Source: Acidimicrobiia bacterium
GTDB lineage: Bacteria; Actinomycetota; Acidimicrobiia; Spongiisociales; ZC4RG35
NCBI GenBank assembly: GCA_041747375.1
Contig: JBGTFH010000003.1
Span: forward strand, 8,324 to 72,323
Direction of reading: 5' to 3'
DNA: 64,000 bases
Shown: piece by piece, positions 19,661 through 53,081 of the stretch
Layout: every line of letters begins with the position of its first letter
Position numbering within the stretch: the stretch's first letter is position 1
The notes under the pieces: model-generated
What the model was told of the DNA's origin: nothing
Databases searched by the model: none
The model's input: only the letters and a program-made list of their open reading frames with translations
Position numbers and translations under genes: made by a program

Positions 19661-20824
19661 GTGAGTGATCTATTGACCGCAGTAGCCGAGGCCCTGGGGA
19701 CCCCGGCCGACCTGATCAGTCGTTCTGCCGCCGCCCGCGCCGCAGCCAACGGAACCTCCACCGAAGATGTTCTCTCCGCATGGTCGGGCGGTGCCCCAAT
19801 GCCCGCCGCCCAAGCCCCTCCTCCCCAGGCGGACCCGCCGCCCGCGGAGGCCGCAGCACCGGAAGTCACCACCGAACTGCCCGCGCCACCGCCCATCCCA
19901 CTCGAGGTAGCGCAGCCCGCGGCGACAGTTGTAGCGGTTGTCGAAGAATCGAAGCCGCTTGAGCCCGTCGACCTATCTCATCGACTGAGGACGGCGGGCA
20001 GGGTAGGGGTTTGGACCGGAGCAGTCCTCGGGCTCTTCGCCTTTGTCGCGGCCACCTCCTGGTGGTCGCAGAACGCCACTGTGGCCGGCGAAGAGGTGTT
20101 GCGGCCGGTACTGGTGGCAAACAGTCAGTCCGTGATGATCGGCATAGCCCTGGCCAGTCTGGTCTTCGGGGCCATGGTCGCGTCGCTCGCCAGGGCCGCC
20201 GCCGGTTGGACAGACCCGGGGATGGCGTTGTCATCATCGAAGTCTTCTACTGCTTGGATCGGGGCAGCCATCGGTCTGGCCCTTGGATTCGGCGCCGGCG
20301 CGTTGCTCGCCAATGGATTCGGCGTCCCCGTCGAAGGTTCGGAGGAATTGGTGCAGTTGCCCGTACTGGTAACGCTTGCAGTCATGTTGGTCGGCGGGGC
20401 CTTCCTGGGCTGGGCCACGACCATTGCGACCCAGGTTTTTGGAATACCGGTTGCCGTGGACACCGCTGACACGGACGAGGTTGGCGTCGTCAGGGCGCGG
20501 CTCGCCAACGCAATCGGAATACCGTTAGCCGGGGTGGTTTTGCTGCTCGCCCTGGTCCTTCCTTTTGCTTGGACGTTGATTCGCTCCAACCATCTAAGTT
20601 CCGGCGGAGCAGCCATCATCGCAATCGTCGCCTCATCCGGGGTACTCGTCTTCGCCTCGCTGGCCGGTTCCAGACCAAACATGAAAATCAGCAGAGGTGA
20701 GTTCCTGGTGGCACTGGCCGGGATCGGGATCGTCTTGATCCTGGTGTTCGCCGTCCTCAACAACGTCGGTGGTGAACACACCGAGGAAGACACTGAGGCT
20801 GTCATCCACCAGCTGGTCGTTTAG
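19661..20824 (+). CDS. membrane protein with Pro/Ala-rich linker, hypothetical
   Basis: 387 aa with multiple TM helices and a PPPQADPPPAEAAAPE low-complexity segment. Confidence 0.4.
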   Translation: MSDLLTAVAEALGTPADLISRSAAARAAANGTSTEDVLSAWSGGAPMPAAQAPPPQADPPPAEAAAPEVTTELPAPPPIPLEVAQPAATVVAVVEESKPLEPVDLSHRLRTAGRVGVWTGAVLGLFAFVAATSWWSQNATVAGEEVLRPVLVANSQSVMIGIALASLVFGAMVASLARAAAGWTDPGMALSSSKSSTAWIGAAIGLALGFGAGALLANGFGVPVEGSEELVQLPVLVTLAVMLVGGAFLGWATTIATQVFGIPVAVDTADTDEVGVVRARLANAIGIPLAGVVLLLALVLPFAWTLIRSNHLSSGGAAIIAIVASSGVLVFASLAGSRPNMKISRGEFLVALAGIGIVLILVFAVLNNVGGEHTEEDTEAVIHQLVV

Positions 20825-29078: not shown

Positions 29079-29222
29079 CTATTCGTCGTCCTTGCCGACC
29101 TCAGCAGATGCTCTCGCACGCGCGCGCTTCTCAGCCCACCGGATTGCCCACAGCGCCAGTAGAGCAGGCACGACAAACATCCCGACCTCATCGATACCGC
29201 CGTAGTGGGCCAACGTTCTCAT
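29079..29222 (-). CDS. 47-aa single-TM peptide (MRTLAHYGGIDEVGMFVVPALLALWAIRWAEKRARARASAEVGKDDE), hypothetical
   Basis: Its ATG overlaps the stop of the upstream 12-TM gene (ATGA), and it ends 25 nt before ctaB. It has a hydrophobic core plus a basic tail. The longer Arg-rich ORF-track version was rejected. Confidence 0.3.
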   Translation of the reverse strand: MRTLAHYGGIDEVGMFVVPALLALWAIRWAEKRARARASAEVGKDDE

Positions 29223-30577
29223 CCGGCGAGAATCACTAATCCGAGCGACGTCAGGGCCACCATGAGCACAAGCATTGCATATTGGGACCTGACCGCGTCC
29301 GGCCCGAAGTCGACCAGAGCGCGATCGTGGGCCAGGACGACCCCGAGCACGTGGCCGACCACGATCACGGCCAATTGGAAGTACCAGATCGGTTCGGTCG
29401 CCGTGATGAAGAAATCTACCGGCCGATCGGCAGTCCCGAAGAGGTCCCAACCAAGAGCGAACGGATCCGAGATCGAGGAGAACAGCTGTTGGCCTTCGAA
29501 AATGATCAGGGTGAAGTAGTGAGCGACGGCATAGGCGAGGGCGATGGGAACCAGGGTATGGGCAAATCGTCGTGCCACCCTGCCCGCATCTGTTCCTTCG
29601 GATAGTCGCGCCGCTAGCCAGGAGGCCGACCAGTAGGCGGCAGACACCACCGCGATGCACCCGAGTAGCAGGACGGTCTGGCCCAGAGGGCTTTGAATCA
29701 GGCTTTGCGTTGCTGCACGGAACCAGACCGTTCCACTGGCCCCGTCATAGGTGACGGTGCCAATCGCCGCCAATACGAAGAACGTGAGTCCGGGCCACGG
29801 GGCCAGGACGGGCAGGGCGCGGAGCCATCCGCGCCACACCAGATACCCATCGCCATCCCGCCCGAGAGGTGAAATGGCCGAAATGATGCGGTTGTAGCCC
29901 GTGAACAAGTCGGCAACAACCAACCCGGTCTCCCGGCCGAGCAGCGCCATCGAACCGAACAAGTAGCCCGAATATATGATCGCCGCCCAACCCAATGCCA
30001 CCGGACTGCCCGAATCGGGGCTGATCAACTCAAACCATGCGAAAGCGACGAGAGCCACGCTTGCCGGCCAAATCCCGAATCGGTCGAGCAGGGCATTCTT
30101 CTCGGTTTCACCGATCCGGAGCGCCGATCCGATGGAACCCCAGGGGTTGATCGCCCGGTACAAGTTTCCAATAAATGCGGCGAGGAACGGGATGACGAGC
30201 CACATCACCACCCATACCAGGACCGGGGCAATCGTGGGCCGTCCACGAACCTGTTCTATTCCCAGCAGACTCGGGACGACCTGGCCCACCACCAACAGCA
30301 AGCCCACGACTCCGGCAGCCCCCAGCGAGACACCGAGCCAGCGAGGTATGACAACCAACCGCCGTTCGCTTATCGGGCGATTGAGCCTGGGTTCGGGCCA
30401 GAGAAGCGCAAGGGCCACGAAAGACAGAACGAGGACACCCGCGGCCGCGACCACGAAATAGGAGAGAGGCACCGGGAGGTCAAGGCGGCCCCCGATACCG
30501 TGGGCGAGAGCAATTCCCGGTGACAGAAATACCAGGCCTCCCGCAACCACAATTGCTGCCGGGAGGCGTCTTATCAA
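29219..30577 (-). CDS. polytopic (about 12 TM) membrane protein with Sec signal peptide; mature N-terminus begins with His (AHG); function unknown
   Basis: 452 aa. Signal peptide is MIRRLPAAIVVAGGLVFLSPGIALA|HG. Conserved His pairs sit in TM segments; its stop overlaps the small peptide's start. Confidence 0.55.
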   Translation of the reverse strand: MIRRLPAAIVVAGGLVFLSPGIALAHGIGGRLDLPVPLSYFVVAAAGVLVLSFVALALLWPEPRLNRPISERRLVVIPRWLGVSLGAAGVVGLLLVVGQVVPSLLGIEQVRGRPTIAPVLVWVVMWLVIPFLAAFIGNLYRAINPWGSIGSALRIGETEKNALLDRFGIWPASVALVAFAWFELISPDSGSPVALGWAAIIYSGYLFGSMALLGRETGLVVADLFTGYNRIISAISPLGRDGDGYLVWRGWLRALPVLAPWPGLTFFVLAAIGTVTYDGASGTVWFRAATQSLIQSPLGQTVLLLGCIAVVSAAYWSASWLAARLSEGTDAGRVARRFAHTLVPIALAYAVAHYFTLIIFEGQQLFSSISDPFALGWDLFGTADRPVDFFITATEPIWYFQLAVIVVGHVLGVVLAHDRALVDFGPDAVRSQYAMLVLMVALTSLGLVILAG

Positions 30578-33597: not shown

Positions 33598-34488
33598 AAA
33601 ATCGTCGATCTCCCCCGCCAATCGGACCGGATGGGTCCAGGGGACCTCGTGTCGGGCACCGGCGACCTCGACGACGGTGACATTTCGCAACGAAGATGCG
33701 AGCTCGTATTGCCACGAGACCGGCACCAGCTGATCCTCGGTTGGAATCACAACCAAAGTGTCGGTGTCCAAACGACCGAGCCACTCACGTGAGTCGAAAC
33801 GGAGCATGGCCAACGAGGCCTGAGCGCCGGCGTCTACGTCGCGACGATGAGTTTCCTCCCAGAACCAGCGGCCATGTTCGGGGGCGACGGCCCCGGTCGC
33901 GAGCAGATAGCCCGCCCGCACGTCCGGTGTTCCGAATCCGAATATGCGCTCGAACCCGCGCACCAGGACACTTCCGAGCGCACGCAAAGTGCGGAGGGGT
34001 TGCGGGTGATAAGTGAAGGTGGCGACGAGCACCATTTTCTTGACCCGGCCGGGATAGTGATGGGCCAGTTCCTGGGCAACGGCGCCGCCCAGTGAATACC
34101 CGACCACGTCGCACGTATCCACGCCGAGCTGGTCGAGCACACCGGCGATGTCGTCGGCTTGGTCGCTGATTTCGTATGGCCCCCGGGACAGCACTGAGAG
34201 TCCATGTCCACGGTGGTCGAGCAAGATCACACGTCGATGTGCCGCCAGAAGCGGGGCAACCTCGTACCACTCCGCCAGCGAGGAACCGCCTAGACCGTGA
34301 ATAACCAGCAACGGATCACCGGTCTCGGGGCCGGCCTCCCTGACCAGGAATTCGCTGTCACCGACGAATACGGTCCTACCCGGCTGTCTCCAGGGATGAA
34401 CCTGGGGTTGCTTGAACTTCGGGATCAAGACAGGGAGGAGGGCCCGGACCGCCAAGGCCGCCACGAGCAACTTCGTCAGGAATCTCAC
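33586..34488 (-). CDS. alpha/beta hydrolase
   Basis: 300 aa with the GYSLGG nucleophile elbow and an HGLGGS oxyanion region. Confidence 0.75.
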   Translation of the reverse strand: MRFLTKLLVAALAVRALLPVLIPKFKQPQVHPWRQPGRTVFVGDSEFLVREAGPETGDPLLVIHGLGGSSLAEWYEVAPLLAAHRRVILLDHRGHGLSVLSRGPYEISDQADDIAGVLDQLGVDTCDVVGYSLGGAVAQELAHHYPGRVKKMVLVATFTYHPQPLRTLRALGSVLVRGFERIFGFGTPDVRAGYLLATGAVAPEHGRWFWEETHRRDVDAGAQASLAMLRFDSREWLGRLDTDTLVVIPTEDQLVPVSWQYELASSLRNVTVVEVAGARHEVPWTHPVRLAGEIDDFLAR

Positions 34489-34919
34489 GACTCGAGACTC
34501 CCGGTTGCAAATACATACTCCTCGACCGGATTCCCGTCGATCAGATGCTCCTGGATGATCCGGTCCAGCTTCTCGATGGTCAGATGCGCGTACCAGGTGC
34601 CCTCGGGATAGACCACGGCGATCGGCCCCTGTTCACAGATCCTCAAGCAATCGACCTTGTTTCGCAACACCGACCCGTCGCCCGCCGGGACCGGTGTGGC
34701 CTCGACACCTGGCTTGCCATACCAGATGGGCGGAGCGGAGGTGAGGTCGAGTTCCTTCAGACGCCTCTTGAGATGGGACCAGAGTTCGCTCGTTTCTTCG
34801 CGCGGGGCACATTTCGGAGTGGTCTGGTCAGCACAAAGGAATATGTGTCTCCCAACGCGTGGTATCGACAGAGCATCAGCAATCGATTCGAGACGTTGTC
34901 GTGGATCCATCGGAGTCAT
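34485..34919 (-). CDS. thioredoxin-like [2Fe-2S] ferredoxin domain protein
   Basis: 144 aa; Cys pattern IFLCADQTTPKC...VDCLRICEQGPIAVVYPEGTWY. Its stop overlaps the hydrolase start. Confidence 0.6.
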   Translation of the reverse strand: MTPMDPRQRLESIADALSIPRVGRHIFLCADQTTPKCAPREETSELWSHLKRRLKELDLTSAPPIWYGKPGVEATPVPAGDGSVLRNKVDCLRICEQGPIAVVYPEGTWYAHLTIEKLDRIIQEHLIDGNPVEEYVFATGSLES

Positions 34920-34960: not shown

Positions 34961-35980
34961 TTACGAAACTACCTCGATGCCGCCGCCTTCATTGAACCCA
35001 CCGATCGTCACGGCGCCGGGAACCGCCGCCCGATAGTCCTCGACGTCCGATGGGTCGAGGGCGACGAGGAGTCCTCCCGAGGTCTGGGCGTCGACGAGGA
35101 TACGGATGTCGACATCTCTCGAGTCCACGAAGTCGCCGACCGATTCCAGGTTCCGCTTCGAACCACCCGCCCAGGCGCCCTGCTCGAGCAGTTCGCCAAC
35201 CCCTTCGAGAACCGGCACCTCGCCGAAGCGGACGGTCGCTCCGACCCCGGATGCCTCACATACCTCACGGAGATGCCCGAGGAGGCCGAAACCGGTGACG
35301 TCAGTTGCGGCATGGGCGTTGCCGGGAATCAGAGCAGCGCCGGAAACGGAGTTCAGGGCCGCCATCTGTTCGATTGCCGTCGCCGCCAGGTCGGGTGGAC
35401 AGAAGCCCCGCTTGATCGCGGTGGTGACGATCCCGATGCCCAGTGGCTTGGTCAATAACAGGAGGTCGCCGGGACGGGCTCCGGAGATGGCGACCGCCTT
35501 ACCCGCGTCAACCAGTCCGGTGACCGCATAGCCGAACATCGGCTCAGGAGCATCGACGGAGTGGCCCCCGACCACCGTACAACCTGCCTGTGCCATCACA
35601 TCGAGACCACCACGGAGCACGTCGCCGGCGACCTGAAAGGGCAATTCGTCACGGGGCCAGGCGAGAAACGTAAGTGCTGTCAACGGATTTCCACCCATGG
35701 CGTAGACGTCGCTGAGGGCGTTGGCGGCGGCGATCCGACCGAAGTCATAGGGTTCATCGACTACGGGCGTGAAGATGTCGACCGTCTGCACCAGGGCGCG
35801 ACCATCCCCCAGCGCATAGACGCCGGAATCGTCGGCGACCGACAACCCGATCAACAGATCAGGATGTTCGGTTGCGGGATGGCCATGGACTGGACGCAAG
35901 ACCTGCGCCAACTCGGCAACGCCGAGTTTGCAGGCTCAGCCAGCGCCGTGGCTGTACCGGGTTAGACGGGTAGCGGACAT
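34961..35980 (-). CDS. selD: selenide, water dikinase (selenophosphate synthetase) containing in-frame UGA (selenocysteine) at codon 15
   Basis: ORF-track fragment 34961..35911 is truncated by TGA at 35936-35938 (minus). Reading through from ATG 35980-35978 gives MSATRLTRYSHGAG-U-ACKLGVAELAQVLRPV..., matching the E. coli SelD N-terminus (LTQYSHGAGCGCKI). The full length of 339 aa fits SelD. Confidence 0.8.
35910..35928 (-). promoter_or_regulatory. candidate SECIS-like hairpin (AACUCGGC-GUU-GCCGAGUU) starting 8 nt 3' of the selD UGA
   Basis: Perfect 8-bp stem with a GUU loop at a bacterial-SECIS-like distance from the UGA, seen directly in the sequence. Confidence 0.45.
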
Positions 35981-36030
35981 GACGTGAAACTTAACTAAGA
36001 ACGATCGGTTGGTTACCCTTTCCACTTCCC

Positions 36031-46237: not shown

Positions 46238-46253
46238 CCAGCACCAGATGGGT

Positions 46254-46288
46254 AAAAAACAACAGGCCCCGAGGGGCCTGTTGTTTTA
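46254..46288. terminator. bidirectional rho-independent terminator (AAAAAACAACAGGCCCC-GA-GGGGCCTGTTGTTTT)
   Basis: Perfect 12-bp GC-rich stem flanked by an A-run and a T-run, between convergent genes. Confidence 0.8.
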
Positions 46289-46303
46289 TGAGGAGGAGTG
46301 AGT

Positions 46304-46825
46304 TCAGGAAGTCTTGGCTTTGGAGGCCGCAGCTCCTGAAGCCGGGGCCTTCGAGGCCGAAGCCTTCGAGGCCGAAGCCTTCGCTGTGCTCGTCTTCGCT
46401 GCCGTGGTTTTGGCAGTAGAAGCCTTCGAGGCCGAAGCCTTTGTGGCCGAAGCCTTCGAGGCCGAAGCCTTCGAGGCCGAAGCCTTCTTGGCGGCGGGCT
46501 TGGCCGACTCGGTCGCCGGGCGGAAGGATGCACGCCACGTGGCGAGCATGTCCTCCAACTGGGTGCGCAGTTTGCCCACCTGCTCCTGGACCTGGTCGAG
46601 ATCTACCTTGGCGGTGATCTCCTCGACCGTCTTGTTGTCCGATACCCGGGCAACGACCTTTTCACCTTCGCTGGCCCAGGTCTCGAAAGCCTTGCCTGCG
46701 ACCTTTGTGTAGTCGGCGGTCTCTTCATTGATCTTGACTTTGAGGTCACCGACTTTGCCGGTGACTTTGCGGGCGGCAATGACGGGGGCGCCTACTGCCG
46801 CATACAGGACGTTCTTAGCCTGCAT
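46304..46825 (-). CDS. HbhA-like (heparin-binding hemagglutinin family) protein with Lys/Ala/Ser-rich C-terminal repeats
   Basis: 173 aa with an N-terminal coiled coil and a C-terminal ASKAS/KASAS array encoded by tandem 15-nt repeats (46310-46500). Confidence 0.65.
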   Translation of the reverse strand: MQAKNVLYAAVGAPVIAARKVTGKVGDLKVKINEETADYTKVAGKAFETWASEGEKVVARVSDNKTVEEITAKVDLDQVQEQVGKLRTQLEDMLATWRASFRPATESAKPAAKKASASKASASKASATKASASKASTAKTTAAKTSTAKASASKASASKAPASGAAASKAKTS

Positions 46826-50341: not shown

Positions 50342-50899
50342 CTAGCTGTCGACGAGGGCGGAAGCTCCGAACACTGTTCCCTCACACCTGAGTACCGCTT
50401 CGGGAAGATCGGCGTCGTTGTATGGGATCTCCGCACCCGGATAGGGCGATCCGATGCCGATGAACCCGGGTATGGGGTCGGGAAAGTCCTCGACGCCCCG
50501 GGCTCGCAGACACCTGGAAAACGCCTCCAATTGGCCGACCACGTCGTCGCGGTAGGAGCTGTCGTAACCGAGGTCGAGGGCGCCCTCGGATAAGAAACTG
50601 GCACATTGGGATAGGGCTTCGGTGGTCGCCGGATCGGAATAGTCGAGATGTTCACTCATCACCTCGAGACGGGGCCGGCCGTCGGCGTCGAAAGGAATCT
50701 CCACGATTTCTATCCCGTTTTCTCCCATGCACGCGACAAAGTCGGCGGTCGCTGCAACTCCGTCTACAGGTGGCGTGGTGGTGGTCGTGGTGGTCACAAT
50801 TGATGTCGCGACCGACGGTTCGGCGTTGTTGCATCCGGCGACGACCACAGCCACCACGACGAGTGCGAACAGCACTCGGTGTCTAACCATCGCTGTCAC
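50342..50899 (-). CDS. lipoprotein, hypothetical (Cys-containing secreted domain)
   Basis: 185 aa with lipobox VVAGC and a poly-Thr linker. Confidence 0.45.
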   Translation of the reverse strand: MTAMVRHRVLFALVVVAVVVAGCNNAEPSVATSIVTTTTTTTPPVDGVAATADFVACMGENGIEIVEIPFDADGRPRLEVMSEHLDYSDPATTEALSQCASFLSEGALDLGYDSSYRDDVVGQLEAFSRCLRARGVEDFPDPIPGFIGIGSPYPGAEIPYNDADLPEAVLRCEGTVFGASALVDS

Positions 50900-53081
50900 C
50901 GCGCGGGATCAGCCCATCCGCGAGAATCATGGCGATGTCTCGAACCGGGACGTCACTTCGATTGAGTTCCTTGACCCCGTCATCGAGCATTACGAAGCAG
51001 AAGGGACATGCAATAGCAATCTCGTCGGCCCCCGTTGCCAGGGCTTCTTCGGCTCTCTCGATGTTGACCTTTTTGCCGGTCTGCTCCTCCATCCAGAATC
51101 GGGCACCACCGGCTCCACAACAGAGTGCCCTAGTTCCGTGTCGGGGCATTTCAACCACGTCGATTCCCCCTGCAGCAGCGAGGACCTCTCTAGGGGCGAC
51201 GTAGATGTCGTTGTGGCGGCCTAGATAGCAGGGATCGTGATACGCGATCTTTTTCCGCTCGCCATCCGCTTTCAGCGGTTCGGGAAGTCGTCCTTGCGCC
51301 ATCAACTCGACCAGAAGCTGGCTGTGATGCACAACCTCGTAGTCGCCGCCGAATTGCGGATACTCGTTGGCGATCGTATTGAAACAATGAGCGCATTGGG
51401 TGATCACCTTCTTCACACCGATGTTGTCGAAGGTCTCTATGTTCTGAATCGCCAGTTGTTGAAAGACGAATTCATTCCCCGAGCGACGGGCCGGGTCGCC
51501 ATTGCAGAGCTCACGCCTCGCCAGGATCGCGAAATCGATTTCCGCGGTATGGAGCAGCCTCGCCAGTGCGACCGAGACCGCGGTGTTCCGATCGTCAAAC
51601 GACCCTGCGCAGCCCACAAACCACAAATACTCGGCAGACTCCTTGCCGTTCTCACCGAACACGGGGACTTCGAAGTCGAGTTCGGATGTCCAATCGCCCC
51701 GCGCCTGTTGGCTGAGTCCCCAGGGGTTGGATTGGTTCTCCATCGCCACGAATGCCTTACCGAGCTCGGCCGGGAAGTCGGACTCCATCAACGTGAGATG
51801 ACGCCGCATATCGAGAATGCGGTCGACGATTTCGATATCGACCGGGCAGATCTCATCGCAAGCCCGACAGGTGGTGCAGGCAAACACCTCCTCGGCGGTG
51901 ATCCGATCAAACAGGCCTGCATCCGCCGCCAACACCGCCAGAGACCCGACGGGTGGAGCGACACCGCTGTTGGCCGCGGCGACCTCCCCGCTCTTGAGGA
52001 CCATTTCCCGGGGGTCGAGCGGCTTCCCGGTGATATTTGCCGGGCACACCGAGGTGCACCGGCCACAAATCGTGCACGCGTCTGTATCAAAAATCTGCTT
52101 CCAGGTGAGGTCGCTGGCAAGCGCGGCGCCGATGCTCTCGATGTCCTCGGCCTCGAGGAGGTTTGGCATCGGCCGCATCGCTCCTTTGGGTCGATCGTGC
52201 GCGCTCAGGAACAGGTTCACCGGCGAAGTGAACATGTGCCGGAGCTTGGTCACCGGCAGGACAACCAGGAACAACAGGAACGATGCGACATGGGTGATCC
52301 ACATGGCGAGGTGAATCTCGCTGGCCGCCGACTCCGGCAGCAAGGCCGACAACGGGTATCCGACGAAGGACCAGACTTCGAAGGCCGGGCGGCCGACGAG
52401 CGAGATGCGCGCCGCCTCCGTCAACAGGCCGGTGATGCCGATCATGGCCAGGGTTATCAGGATCAATATGTCTTCTGGCTTGGTCTTCGAGCGTGTCCGC
52501 CAGGGTCGGACCCCGTAACGGAGTACCACGGCGAATCCGATACCACCCAGGTACACGAGAGACGCCAGATCCAGCACAGCCGAGTAGCCCTGATAGAACC
52601 ATCCATGGAGGAACTTGAGATTCCCGGGAAGAATGTGATCGATCTCGAGCGTCACCGTGCCCAGGAACAGGACTACGAACCCGTAATAGATCATCGCATG
52701 CATGACCCCGGATCGTGGATCCCTCATCAGAGTCTTCATCCGCAAGCCCTGGCTCAAACGGCGGATCCGCTGGCGCCACTGTCCCCATCGGGGATCGGAG
52801 CCCCCCTGAAGCCAGGAAGCGGATCGAACCGCCAGGAGATGGACCATCAGCCAGATGAATCCAGCCACCGTGAAGTAGAAGAGAACGACCACGAACGCGG
52901 GTACGTTTCCAAATACCTCACGTCCGATCTCGAAGTCGGGCTCCTCCGGGATAGTGCCTAGAACGCCCAAAGCAATTGTTCCGACCGCGAATACGATCCC
53001 CAGAGTCTCGATGATCGCCGGAACCAGACTGCGACGGGTGGTCGCGTCCCGGGTCTCCTGTTTCACGGCGGTATCGGTCAT
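50883..53081 (-). CDS. membrane-anchored Fe-S oxidoreductase (NarI-like cytochrome b domain + 4Fe-4S ferredoxin + CCG domains; Rv0338c/HdrD/GlpC-like)
   Basis: 732 aa with an N-terminal five-TM domain, two CxxCxxCxxxCP motifs and two CCG cysteine-rich domains. Confidence 0.75.
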   Translation of the reverse strand: MTDTAVKQETRDATTRRSLVPAIIETLGIVFAVGTIALGVLGTIPEEPDFEIGREVFGNVPAFVVVLFYFTVAGFIWLMVHLLAVRSASWLQGGSDPRWGQWRQRIRRLSQGLRMKTLMRDPRSGVMHAMIYYGFVVLFLGTVTLEIDHILPGNLKFLHGWFYQGYSAVLDLASLVYLGGIGFAVVLRYGVRPWRTRSKTKPEDILILITLAMIGITGLLTEAARISLVGRPAFEVWSFVGYPLSALLPESAASEIHLAMWITHVASFLLFLVVLPVTKLRHMFTSPVNLFLSAHDRPKGAMRPMPNLLEAEDIESIGAALASDLTWKQIFDTDACTICGRCTSVCPANITGKPLDPREMVLKSGEVAAANSGVAPPVGSLAVLAADAGLFDRITAEEVFACTTCRACDEICPVDIEIVDRILDMRRHLTLMESDFPAELGKAFVAMENQSNPWGLSQQARGDWTSELDFEVPVFGENGKESAEYLWFVGCAGSFDDRNTAVSVALARLLHTAEIDFAILARRELCNGDPARRSGNEFVFQQLAIQNIETFDNIGVKKVITQCAHCFNTIANEYPQFGGDYEVVHHSQLLVELMAQGRLPEPLKADGERKKIAYHDPCYLGRHNDIYVAPREVLAAAGGIDVVEMPRHGTRALCCGAGGARFWMEEQTGKKVNIERAEEALATGADEIAIACPFCFVMLDDGVKELNRSDVPVRDIAMILADGLIPRGDSDG

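What the first reader, a model, noticed from the sequence alone, without database searches (positions are those of the whole stretch)
35900..35990. selD is a selenoprotein: in-frame UGA at the catalytic Cys position plus a SECIS-like hairpin
The ORF track starts selD at a TTG (35911) only because an in-frame TGA sits at 35936-35938 on the minus strand. Translating from ATG 35980 gives MSATRLTRYSHGAG-U-ACKLGVAELAQVLRPVHGHP..., which aligns residue for residue with the glycine-rich N-terminal loop of selenophosphate synthetase (E. coli ...LTQYSHGAGCGCKI...). The UGA replaces the catalytic Cys, the known Sec position in selenoprotein-type SelD. An 8-bp stem/3-nt loop (AACUCGGC-GUU-GCCGAGUU) begins 8 nt downstream of the UGA. 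A Sec-containing SelD would mean the organism carries the full Sec-decoding machinery (selA, selB, tRNA-Sec) and further selenoproteins, which is uncommon among Actinobacteria.
Basis: partly seen in the sequence, partly recalled or inferred. Interest (0 to 1): 0.7.

Follow-up and report, generated by a model that had tools for sequence, protein, structure and literature searches.

The report
Selenocysteine-type selD with SECIS hairpins
The selenophosphate synthetase gene of this uncultured Acidimicrobiia bacterium almost certainly reads an in-frame UGA as selenocysteine with the help of RNA hairpins just downstream. This is a real but well-known arrangement that gene callers routinely truncate.

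Summary
On the minus strand, ATG 35980 opens a 339-codon selD. Its codon 15 is TGA (35938-35936) and aligns with the catalytic Cys17 of E. coli SelD.

Four independent close relatives, one on a closed 2.6-Mb contig, keep the same ATG and the same TGA. The ten codons before the TGA differ only by synonymous changes, so that stretch is translated.

It is followed by a second hairpin (35909-35893). Across 119 UGA-type selD genes from many phyla both hairpins are 82% paired and covary. In 77 Cys-type genes the same columns pair at chance level.

TGA is an ordinary stop elsewhere in the window, so this is local recoding.

Sec-containing SelD with a bacterial SECIS has been known since the 1990s. 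A truncated genome scan found at least 120 species-level genomes with this exact motif, about 43 of them Actinomycetota. A 2026 preprint reports it in Actinomarina, another Acidimicrobiia order.

I could not check selA, selB or tRNA-Sec in the same genome. They are absent from the window and the other contigs were out of reach.

Verdict: genuine selenoprotein gene, new member of a known kind, low novelty.

The parts
34961..35980 (-). Full selD coding sequence (339 codons plus TAA stop), read through the UGA at codon 15
   Evidence: TIGR00476 selD at 372.5 bits and NF002098 at 355 bits. AIRS and AIRS_C domains. E. coli SelD 3U0O at E 4e-85.
35978..35980 (-). ATG start codon, at the same position in all close relatives
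   Evidence: ATG is conserved in window, L002, L208, L003, L209 and L001. Only codons 2-4 vary at the amino-acid level.
35936..35938 (-). In-frame UGA, the predicted selenocysteine codon (residue 15, equivalent to E. coli Cys17)
   Evidence: It aligns with 84 Cys and 3 UGA in relatives. TGA is conserved in L001, L002, L208 and L209.
35910..35928 (-). Hairpin 1 (AACUCGGC-GUU-GCCGAGUU): 8-bp stem, 3-nt loop, 7-nt spacer after the UGA. Candidate SelB-binding bSECIS stem-loop.
   Evidence: -10.8 kcal/mol, z -4.5; alignment columns 11-18/22-29 are 79.7% paired in 118 distinct UGA-type genes, and 5 of 8 pairs show compensatory changes; 62% paired in Cys-type genes.
35893..35909 (-). Hairpin 2 (GGCGCAG-GUC-UUGCGUC): 7 pairs including 2 G-U, with a loop that starts with GU
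   Evidence: -6.7 kcal/mol, z -3.3; columns 30-36/40-46 are 83.9% paired in UGA-type genes, and 5 of 7 pairs show compensatory changes; 43% paired in Cys-type genes.
35899..35937 (-). Alternative fold: a lower stem (35937-35930 with 35906-35899) encloses hairpin 1 and puts the GA of the UGA at the base of one long hairpin. It is mutually exclusive with hairpin 2.
   Evidence: This is the minimum-energy fold of the window sequence (-22.5 kcal/mol). Across UGA-type genes it is 78.8% paired, but only 1 of 8 pairs shows compensatory change.
35988..35997 (-). Conserved TTAGTTAAGTT motif with a -10-like TAAGTT 7 nt before the ATG and no Shine-Dalgarno. It suggests a leaderless selD mRNA (inference).
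   Evidence: TAAGTT, TAACTT or TATCTT sits at the same distance from the start codon in window, L002, L208, L003, L209, L001, L008, L005 and L006. The consensus promoter scan found nothing.
34485..34919 (-). Conserved downstream partner gene: a 144-aa four-Cys thioredoxin-like [2Fe-2S] ferredoxin-like protein, probably co-transcribed with selD
   Evidence: NCBIfam NF041612 at E 5e-13, below its cut-off. tblastn found it next to selD in 31 loci, of both Sec and Cys type. Stop and start overlap in L005 and L006.

Best explanation
This is a selenocysteine-type selenophosphate synthetase gene (selD; selenide, water dikinase).

Translation starts at ATG 35980, probably on a leaderless mRNA. At codon 15 the UGA is not read as stop. 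Instead the structured mRNA directly downstream acts as a bacterial SECIS. That structure is hairpin 1 at 35928-35910 plus hairpin 2 at 35909-35893, or alternatively one long bipartite hairpin. It would recruit SelB-GTP-Sec-tRNA(Sec), so that selenocysteine is inserted into the glycine-rich N-terminal loop (SHGAG-U-ACK). There it takes the place of the catalytic Cys17 of E. coli SelD, next to the essential Lys.

The enzyme then makes selenophosphate, which is itself needed to make Sec-tRNA(Sec). The gene therefore depends on its own product.

Shown here: the gene identity, the position of the UGA, translation of the upstream peptide, conservation of the UGA in the clade, and a Sec-specific covarying RNA structure.

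Inferred: SelB binding, which hairpin is the binding site, actual Sec insertion, and the presence of selA, selB and selC elsewhere in the genome.
For: (1) Identity and position. TIGR00476 at 372.5 bits covers the N-terminus. The UGA aligns with E. coli Cys17 and with the Cys of the Aquifex SelD crystal constructs.

(2) Comparative test. Of 87 aligned relatives, 84 have Cys and 3 have UGA at this codon.

(3) Clade conservation. Four independent close relatives keep ATG and TGA: L002 (NCBI GCA_037969415.1), L208 (JGI), L209 (Logan) and L001 (closed 2.61-Mb contig), with called products 68-84% identical. Codons 5-14 upstream differ only synonymously; window versus L001 shows 6 synonymous changes and 3 non-synonymous, the latter all in codons 2-4.

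(4) RNA structure.
- Alignment A1 of 119 UGA-type genes: 81.6% paired, covariation 0.221 against a shuffle value of 0.125, reached by 0 of 500 shuffles; slid controls are at most 0.099.
- Alignment A2 of 77 Cys-type genes: 53.2% paired, equal to the shuffle expectation.
- Minimum free energy of +1..+50: -20.6 against -15.7 kcal/mol, p = 1.6e-13. The upstream control shows no such difference.
- Syntenic Cys relatives L005 and L006 have z = +1.1.

(5) Covariance model. A model built without the window or its close kin hits 35882-35938(-) at 52.7 bits, E 1.5e-18, with all 15 pairs standard. The sequence-only model gives 42.7 bits.

(6) Genetic code. TGA terminates 20 of 40 long ORFs here, including mgtE and the gene just downstream of selD, so there is no genome-wide reassignment.

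(7) Literature. 19% of prokaryotic SelD are Sec forms, always at this site and with a bSECIS (PMC4561486). SelD and FdhA are the most widespread bacterial selenoproteins (PMC1794560). Actinomarina genomes (Acidimicrobiia) carry selA, selB, selC and selD, and about half have Sec-SelD (bioRxiv 10.64898/2026.04.03.716425).
Against: - No selA, selB or tRNA-Sec lies in the 64-kb window. None lies within 10 kb of selD in syntenic relatives.
- The rest of this genome could not be read.
- No second selenoprotein gene was found in the region that has comparative coverage.
- Rfam has no matching family.
- The hairpin arms are partly fixed by the codons for K-L-G...E-L and A-Q-V-L-R, so part of the pairing comes from protein conservation. 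The Sec and Cys sets are also not phylogenetically matched.
- No protein-level evidence exists.
Confidence: 0.9

Rival explanations
1. The TGA is a nonsense mutation or an assembly or sequencing error, and selD here is a pseudogene.
For: TGA differs from Cys TGT/TGC by one base. The closest full-length homologue, P0001 (L003/L004, 88% identical), has TGT. The sequence comes from a metagenome-assembled genome.
Against: The same TGA occurs in four independent assemblies from different sources and in at least 120 species-level genomes. Codons on both sides remain under purifying selection; for example, window versus L001 over the 100 downstream codons shows 42 synonymous and 23 non-synonymous changes. 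A Sec-specific covarying hairpin follows the TGA.
Confidence: 0.02
2. Translation starts downstream of the TGA (TTG 35911, TTG 35854 or similar), as gene callers assume. The upstream match would then be an untranslated remnant.
For: This is what automatic annotation produced for the gene and its relatives: P0002 at 297 aa and P0003-P0006 at 311-312 aa.
Against: The 14 upstream codons keep their amino acids through synonymous changes, and the ATG is fixed. The truncated product would lack the glycine-rich loop carrying Cys/Sec17 and Lys20. From established knowledge of E. coli SelD, both residues are required for catalysis. Full-length Cys homologues all start at the equivalent ATG.
Confidence: 0.02
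3. The UGA is read through, but not as selenocysteine. Possibilities are near-cognate Trp or Cys insertion, or Cys carried by tRNA-Sec. The hairpins would act only as a read-through stimulator.
For: The Sec machinery was not seen in this genome. Stem-loops next to UGA are known to promote Sec-independent read-through in some SPS genes (HRE/SRE, PMC4561486).
Against: TGA is a normal stop in the window. The structure and motif are shared with UGA-type SelD from lineages with documented Sec machinery, such as Actinomarina (L155; bioRxiv 10.64898/2026.04.03.716425). Only Sec or Cys at this site supports SelD activity (PMC4561486).
Confidence: 0.04

Closest known systems
Sec-containing bacterial SelD (for example Haemophilus influenzae, Aquifex aeolicus, Rubrobacter xylanophilus; the SelD selenoprotein family of Zhang et al. 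2006, PMC1794560, and Mariotti et al. 2015, PMC4561486)
   Same: Same enzyme family. The UGA is at the same single site in the N-terminal glycine-rich loop, Cys-form homologues are common, and the bSECIS lies inside the coding sequence just after the UGA. Sec-to-Cys conversion with a remnant hairpin is seen in a sister lineage (L003), as described in PMC1794560.
   Different: Nothing essential differs. The host is an uncultured, roughly 60% GC Acidimicrobiia lineage, and selD is not linked to selA, selB or selC. Instead it sits in a conserved greA / selD / ferredoxin-like / hydrolase neighbourhood.
Sec-form SelD of Actinomarina (Acidimicrobiia, Actinomarinales), bioRxiv 10.64898/2026.04.03.716425
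   Same: Same class, the same Sec/Cys polymorphism of selD among close relatives, and selD unlinked to selA and selC. An Actinomarina single-cell genome (L155) carries the same HGAG-U-ACK motif.
   Different: The order and genome type differ: about 1.1 Mb and low GC against about 60% GC here, with a 2.6-Mb relative. SelD is only 51% identical. The Sec machinery is documented there and not here.
E. coli fdhF SECIS (the archetypal bacterial SECIS bound by SelB)
   Same: It is a stem-loop in the coding region immediately 3' of the UGA. In the minimum-energy fold the UGA sits at the base of a roughly 40-nt hairpin. The apical loop carries G-U: GUU in hairpin 1, 16-18 nt after the UGA, and GUC in hairpin 2.
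   Different: There is no bulged U in the upper stem. The loop is 3 nt and lies a few nt closer to the UGA. A second covarying hairpin follows. No binding data exist. The comparison with fdhF rests on my own knowledge of that element, not on a tool result.

Membership tests
SelD / selenophosphate synthetase (TIGR00476; AIRS superfamily) | Full-length match to the curated equivalog model above its cut-off | tested here: met
   TIGR00476 at 372.5 bits (cut-off 125) and NF002098 at 355.1 bits (cut-off 299). AIRS plus AIRS_C domains.
SelD / selenophosphate synthetase (TIGR00476; AIRS superfamily) | N-terminal glycine-rich loop with catalytic Cys/Sec and Lys (E. coli Cys17, Lys20) | tested here: met
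   SHGAG-[UGA]-ACK aligns with E. coli SHGAGCGCK. The UGA is at Cys17 and Lys18 is at Lys20.
SelD / selenophosphate synthetase (TIGR00476; AIRS superfamily) | Selenide-dependent ATP cleavage to selenophosphate | not testable with these tools
   This needs an enzyme assay.
Bacterial selenoprotein gene (Sec-decoding trait) | In-frame UGA aligned with Cys in homologues, with conservation on both sides | tested here: met
   84 Cys and 3 UGA at the aligned position; only synonymous substitutions in codons 5-14 upstream, and purifying selection downstream.
Bacterial selenoprotein gene (Sec-decoding trait) | Stem-loop (bSECIS) in the coding sequence directly 3' of the UGA, maintained by selection | tested here: met
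   81.6% paired with covariation in UGA-type genes against 53.2% (chance level) in Cys-type genes; minimum free energy differs at p about 1e-13; covariance model hit at 52.7 bits.
Bacterial selenoprotein gene (Sec-decoding trait) | selA, selB and tRNA-Sec (selC) in the same genome | not testable with these tools
   They are absent from the window. The other contigs of this genome could not be fetched. All three are reported for another Acidimicrobiia order (bioRxiv 10.64898/2026.04.03.716425).
Bacterial selenoprotein gene (Sec-decoding trait) | Selenium detected in the protein at the UGA position | not testable with these tools
   This needs mass spectrometry or 75Se labelling.
E. coli fdhF-type SECIS | Apical loop with G-U about 20 nt after the UGA, on a hairpin that starts within about 11 nt of the UGA | tested here: inconclusive
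   Hairpin 1 starts 7 nt after the UGA, and its loop GUU lies 16-18 nt after it. Hairpin 2 has loop GUC 34-36 nt after the UGA. Which one binds SelB cannot be decided.
E. coli fdhF-type SECIS | Bulged U in the upper stem | tested here: not met
   Both stems are uninterrupted. This feature is specific to enterobacterial SelB and, from my own knowledge, is not a general bSECIS requirement.
Rfam SECIS families | Match to a curated covariance model | tested here: not met
   no hit even at E up to 10. According to bioRxiv 10.64898/2026.04.03.716425, the Rfam SECIS models it tried are mainly eukaryotic and bacterial SECIS elements are poorly represented in Rfam.

The most novel reading that the evidence does not exclude
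Two readings go beyond the textbook picture.

First, the SelD SECIS may be a conserved two-hairpin element rather than a single stem-loop. Both hairpins covary across more than ten phyla, and the second is enforced even at the amino-acid level as the A-Q-V-L-R motif. The second hairpin could have its own role, for example switching between tandem and long-hairpin folds to tune Sec insertion into the enzyme that makes the selenium donor.

Second, the strictly conserved selD / thioredoxin-like [2Fe-2S] ferredoxin-like gene pair in this Acidimicrobiia lineage could mark an undescribed step in selenium handling.
Probability: 0.12. Interest if true: 0.4.

Novelty: new member of a known kind. Interest (0 to 1): 0.15.

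Why it matters
The main value is for annotation. This gene and its relatives are stored in public protein collections as N-terminally truncated ORFs (297-317 aa) that lack the catalytic loop. Selenium-utilisation surveys that rely on those calls will therefore misjudge these lineages.

It also predicts that this Acidimicrobiia MAG encodes selA, selB and selC, and probably further selenoproteins. The truncated genome scan suggests that Sec-type SelD is widespread in uncultured Actinomycetota, Gemmatimonadota, Chloroflexota and Dormibacterota.

It does not change any concept. Sec-SelD with a bSECIS is textbook selenium biology.

Tried and rejected
- **Rfam, gathering threshold and E up to 10.** Nothing matched. 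No bacterial SECIS family seems to be represented.

- **Fetching the rest of the genome.** I tried exact look-ups of three proteins encoded in the window. None is on record, so the remaining roughly 24 kb of the 88-kb contig and the other contigs stayed out of reach.

- **Looking for selA, selB or selC next to selD.** I checked relatives on long contigs and all 209 fetched loci. The tools were ARAGORN, the GH[VI]DHGK[ST] motif and the SelA DK-x-x-GGPQ motif. Only L086 has the cluster. It is a distant, high-GC, Cys-type locus and too remote to serve as a probe for this lineage.

- **Metagenome scan with the protein.** It returned almost only Cys-type genes, because the tool back-translated HGAGCACK.

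- **Codon-score search for other UGA-interrupted genes.** It gave only noise. The best candidate (46248-46712, plus strand) is the antisense of an Ala/Lys-rich protein gene.

- **Read-through BLAST against all loci.** Only the selD UGA was singled out.

- **Genome-wide UGA reassignment.** Rejected, because TGA ends 20 of 40 long ORFs.

- **A further protein-database search with the L086 SelA or SelB.** I decided against it. The 120 rows shown would all be close relatives of that distant organism.

Full report
**Observation.**
- ATG 35980-35978 opens a frame that reads MSATRLTRYSHGAG, then TGA at 35938-35936, then ACKLGVAELAQVLRPVHGHP... through to TAA at 34963-34961.
- The mechanical ORF list starts at TTG 35911. 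The public protein collection holds an even shorter call (P0002, 297 aa, 100% identical, from TTG 35854).
- With the UGA read through, the product matches the curated selD models from its N-terminus: TIGR00476 at 372.5 bits against a cut-off of 125, with residues 5-312 on profile positions 1-310. It has the AIRS and AIRS_C domains.
- Against solved structures the best match is E. coli SelD 3U0O (E 4e-85). 'RLTrYSHGAGCaCK' lies on 'RLTqYSHGAGCgCK', so the UGA is at E. coli Cys17 and Lys18 is at Lys20.

**Is the UGA decoded?** Three lines of evidence say yes.
- Homologues. Most Acidimicrobiia homologues are 340-aa proteins with YSHGAGCACKL. The closest relatives of the window are all called as truncated ORFs. 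Fetching their DNA shows why. L001 (closed 2.61-Mb contig), L002 (NCBI GCA_037969415.1), L208 (JGI) and L209 (Logan) all keep the ATG at the same place and TGA at the same codon.
- Selection upstream. Codons 5-14 upstream of the TGA encode the same R-L-T-R-Y-S-H-G-A-G in all of them but differ at synonymous sites (CGT/CGG/CGA/CGC, CTA/CTC/TTG/CTG, ACC/ACG/ACT, GGC/GGG/GGA, GCT/GCC/GCG). Window versus L001 gives 6 synonymous and 3 non-synonymous changes, the latter all in the variable codons 2-4. An untranslated remnant would not evolve like this.
- Alignment and code. In a read-through BLAST of the window against all fetched loci, this was the only UGA that aligned consistently with Cys or UGA: 84 Cys and 3 UGA. 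TGA is otherwise an ordinary stop here. It ends 20 of 40 long ORFs, including mgtE and the gene just downstream of selD. The recoding is therefore local.

**The RNA element.** It folds at -10.8 kcal/mol, z -4.5, and no shuffle in 200 does as well. A second hairpin follows directly: GGCGCAG-GUC-UUGCGUC at 35909-35893, -6.7 kcal/mol, z -3.3.

To judge selection I scanned the genome collection for CAYGGNGCNGGNTGAGCNTGYAAR. The metagenome scan had supplied mainly Cys-type genes. Both sets align without gaps.

| Measure | 119 UGA-type genes (118 distinct rows counted) | 77 Cys-type genes |
|---|---|---|
| Two-hairpin structure paired | 81.6% | 53.2%, equal to shuffle expectation |
| Covariation score | 0.221 against shuffle 0.125 +/- 0.008; 0 of 500 shuffles reach it; slid controls at most 0.099 | 0.102 against shuffle 0.093; 77 of 500 shuffles reach it |
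| Mean minimum free energy, +1..+50 | -20.6 kcal/mol | -15.7 kcal/mol; p = 1.6e-13 |

- Compensatory changes occur in 5 of 8 pairs of hairpin 1 and 5 of 7 pairs of hairpin 2.
- The UGA-type set has the lower GC content, and the region upstream of the codon shows no such difference.
- The syntenic Cys-type relatives L005 and L006 have no excess structure (z +1.1).
- A covariance model built without the window, L001 or L002 finds 35882-35938(-) at 52.7 bits (E 1.5e-18) with all 15 pairs standard. A sequence-only model gives 42.7 bits. Nothing else in the window scores.

**Caveats on the structure.**
- The arms are partly fixed by the codons for K-L-G...E-L and A-Q-V-L-R.
- The two sets are not phylogenetically matched.
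- In the window itself the minimum-energy fold is one long hairpin, with the GA of the UGA at its base (-22.5 kcal/mol). That lower stem shows little covariation.
- I cannot say which fold forms, or which stem-loop binds SelB.

**Context and evolution.**
- The neighbourhood greA (divergent, 50-nt spacer) / selD / 144-aa four-Cys ferredoxin-like gene / alpha-beta hydrolase / penicillin amidase is conserved in Sec-type and Cys-type relatives alike.
- A rough neighbour-joining tree places the window in a mostly UGA-type clade (L002, L209, L001). The Cys-type L003 is its sister.
- L003 has TGT and keeps both hairpins (-21.7 kcal/mol, z -2.7). This fits a recent Sec-to-Cys switch with a remnant SECIS, a pattern described for SelD in PMC1794560.

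**What could not be shown.**
- No tRNA gene, no SelB-type GTPase motif, no SelA motif and no SelA, SelB or FdhA domain among the long ORFs is present in the window.
- None lies within 10 kb of selD in the syntenic relatives.
- Only the distant locus L086 has selD next to selA, selB and tRNA-Sec.
- Exact look-ups of the window's own proteins found no record, so the rest of the genome stayed out of reach.
- Given the conservation of the UGA across relatives whose called SelD products are only 68% identical to the window's, I consider absence very unlikely.

**Comparison with what is known.**
- Sec-containing SelD is one of the two most widespread bacterial selenoprotein families (PMC1794560).
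- 19% of prokaryotic SelD genes carry Sec, always at this site, and they have a bSECIS (PMC4561486).
- A 2026 preprint reports selA, selB, selC and selD in all 84 complete Actinomarina genomes (Acidimicrobiia), with a Sec form of selD in about half (bioRxiv 10.64898/2026.04.03.716425).
- My truncated scan already lists about 28 Acidimicrobiia and about 15 other Actinomycetota genomes with the same motif. It also lists Gemmatimonadota, Chloroflexota, Dormibacterota, delta-proteobacteria and others.
- 'Uncommon among Actinobacteria' therefore does not hold for uncultured lineages.

**Verdict.** This is a new member of a known kind, and its main value is to correct a systematic annotation error. 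Confidence that this is a Sec-decoded selD is 0.9. Interest is 0.15.

Noticed in passing
window 34485-34919 (-); also L001 10960-11418, L003 3645-4121, L005 11008-11433, L006 11023-11448, L209 1494-1919: A 141-158-aa protein with four conserved Cys (FLCADQTxPKC ... VDCLRICEQGP) follows selD directly, sometimes with overlapping stop and start. It looks like a thioredoxin-like [2Fe-2S] ferredoxin. tblastn found it next to selD in 31 loci, of both Sec and Cys type, essentially every locus whose SelD is at least about 55% identical to the window's. It has no Pfam hit and only a sub-threshold NCBIfam ferredoxin hit. A link to selenium handling is possible but untested.
   Followed up: partly
window 35981-35997 (-), and the same position in L002, L208, L003, L209, L001, L008, L005, L006: A conserved TAAGTT, TAACTT or TATCTT hexamer sits 7-8 nt upstream of the selD start codon with no Shine-Dalgarno sequence. 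The whole greA-selD divergent spacer is only 50 nt. This suggests a leaderless selD mRNA.
   Followed up: partly
L003 2667-2723 and L004 (P0001, 88% identical to the window SelD): This Cys-type (TGT) sister of the window gene still carries both SECIS hairpins. It looks like a very recent Sec-to-Cys conversion.
   Followed up: yes
L086 5890-10162: This high-GC metagenome contig has a compact selD (Cys type) / selA / selB / tRNA-Sec cluster next to formate-dehydrogenase-like Fe-S genes. It is the only one of 209 loci where selD is linked to the Sec machinery.
   Followed up: partly
public protein clusters P0002-P0006, P0012, P0013, P0023, P0027, P0030, P0032, P0040, P0048, P0093, P0104, P0112: Sec-type SelD genes are stored as N-terminally truncated products (293-319 aa) that lack the catalytic loop. 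This is a systematic annotation artefact.
   Followed up: partly
window 46304-46825 (-): This ORF of 173 aa has a C-terminal Ala/Lys/Ser-rich repeat (KASASKASASKASATKASASK...). Its antisense strand gave a false selenoprotein candidate in my codon-score screen.
   Followed up: no
window 50883-53081 (-): This 732-aa protein has two CCG cysteine-rich domains and a 4Fe-4S dicluster domain, so it is GlpC/HdrD-like. That family has selenoprotein members in delta-proteobacteria (PMC1794560), but here the ORF is uninterrupted.
   Followed up: no
window 29219-30577 (-) and 19661-20824 (+): These long ORFs (452 and 387 aa) have no Pfam match. The first has syntenic counterparts of 445-453 aa, also without Pfam hits, in L001, L005 and L006, upstream of the UbiA / COX2 / COX1 genes.
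   Followed up: no
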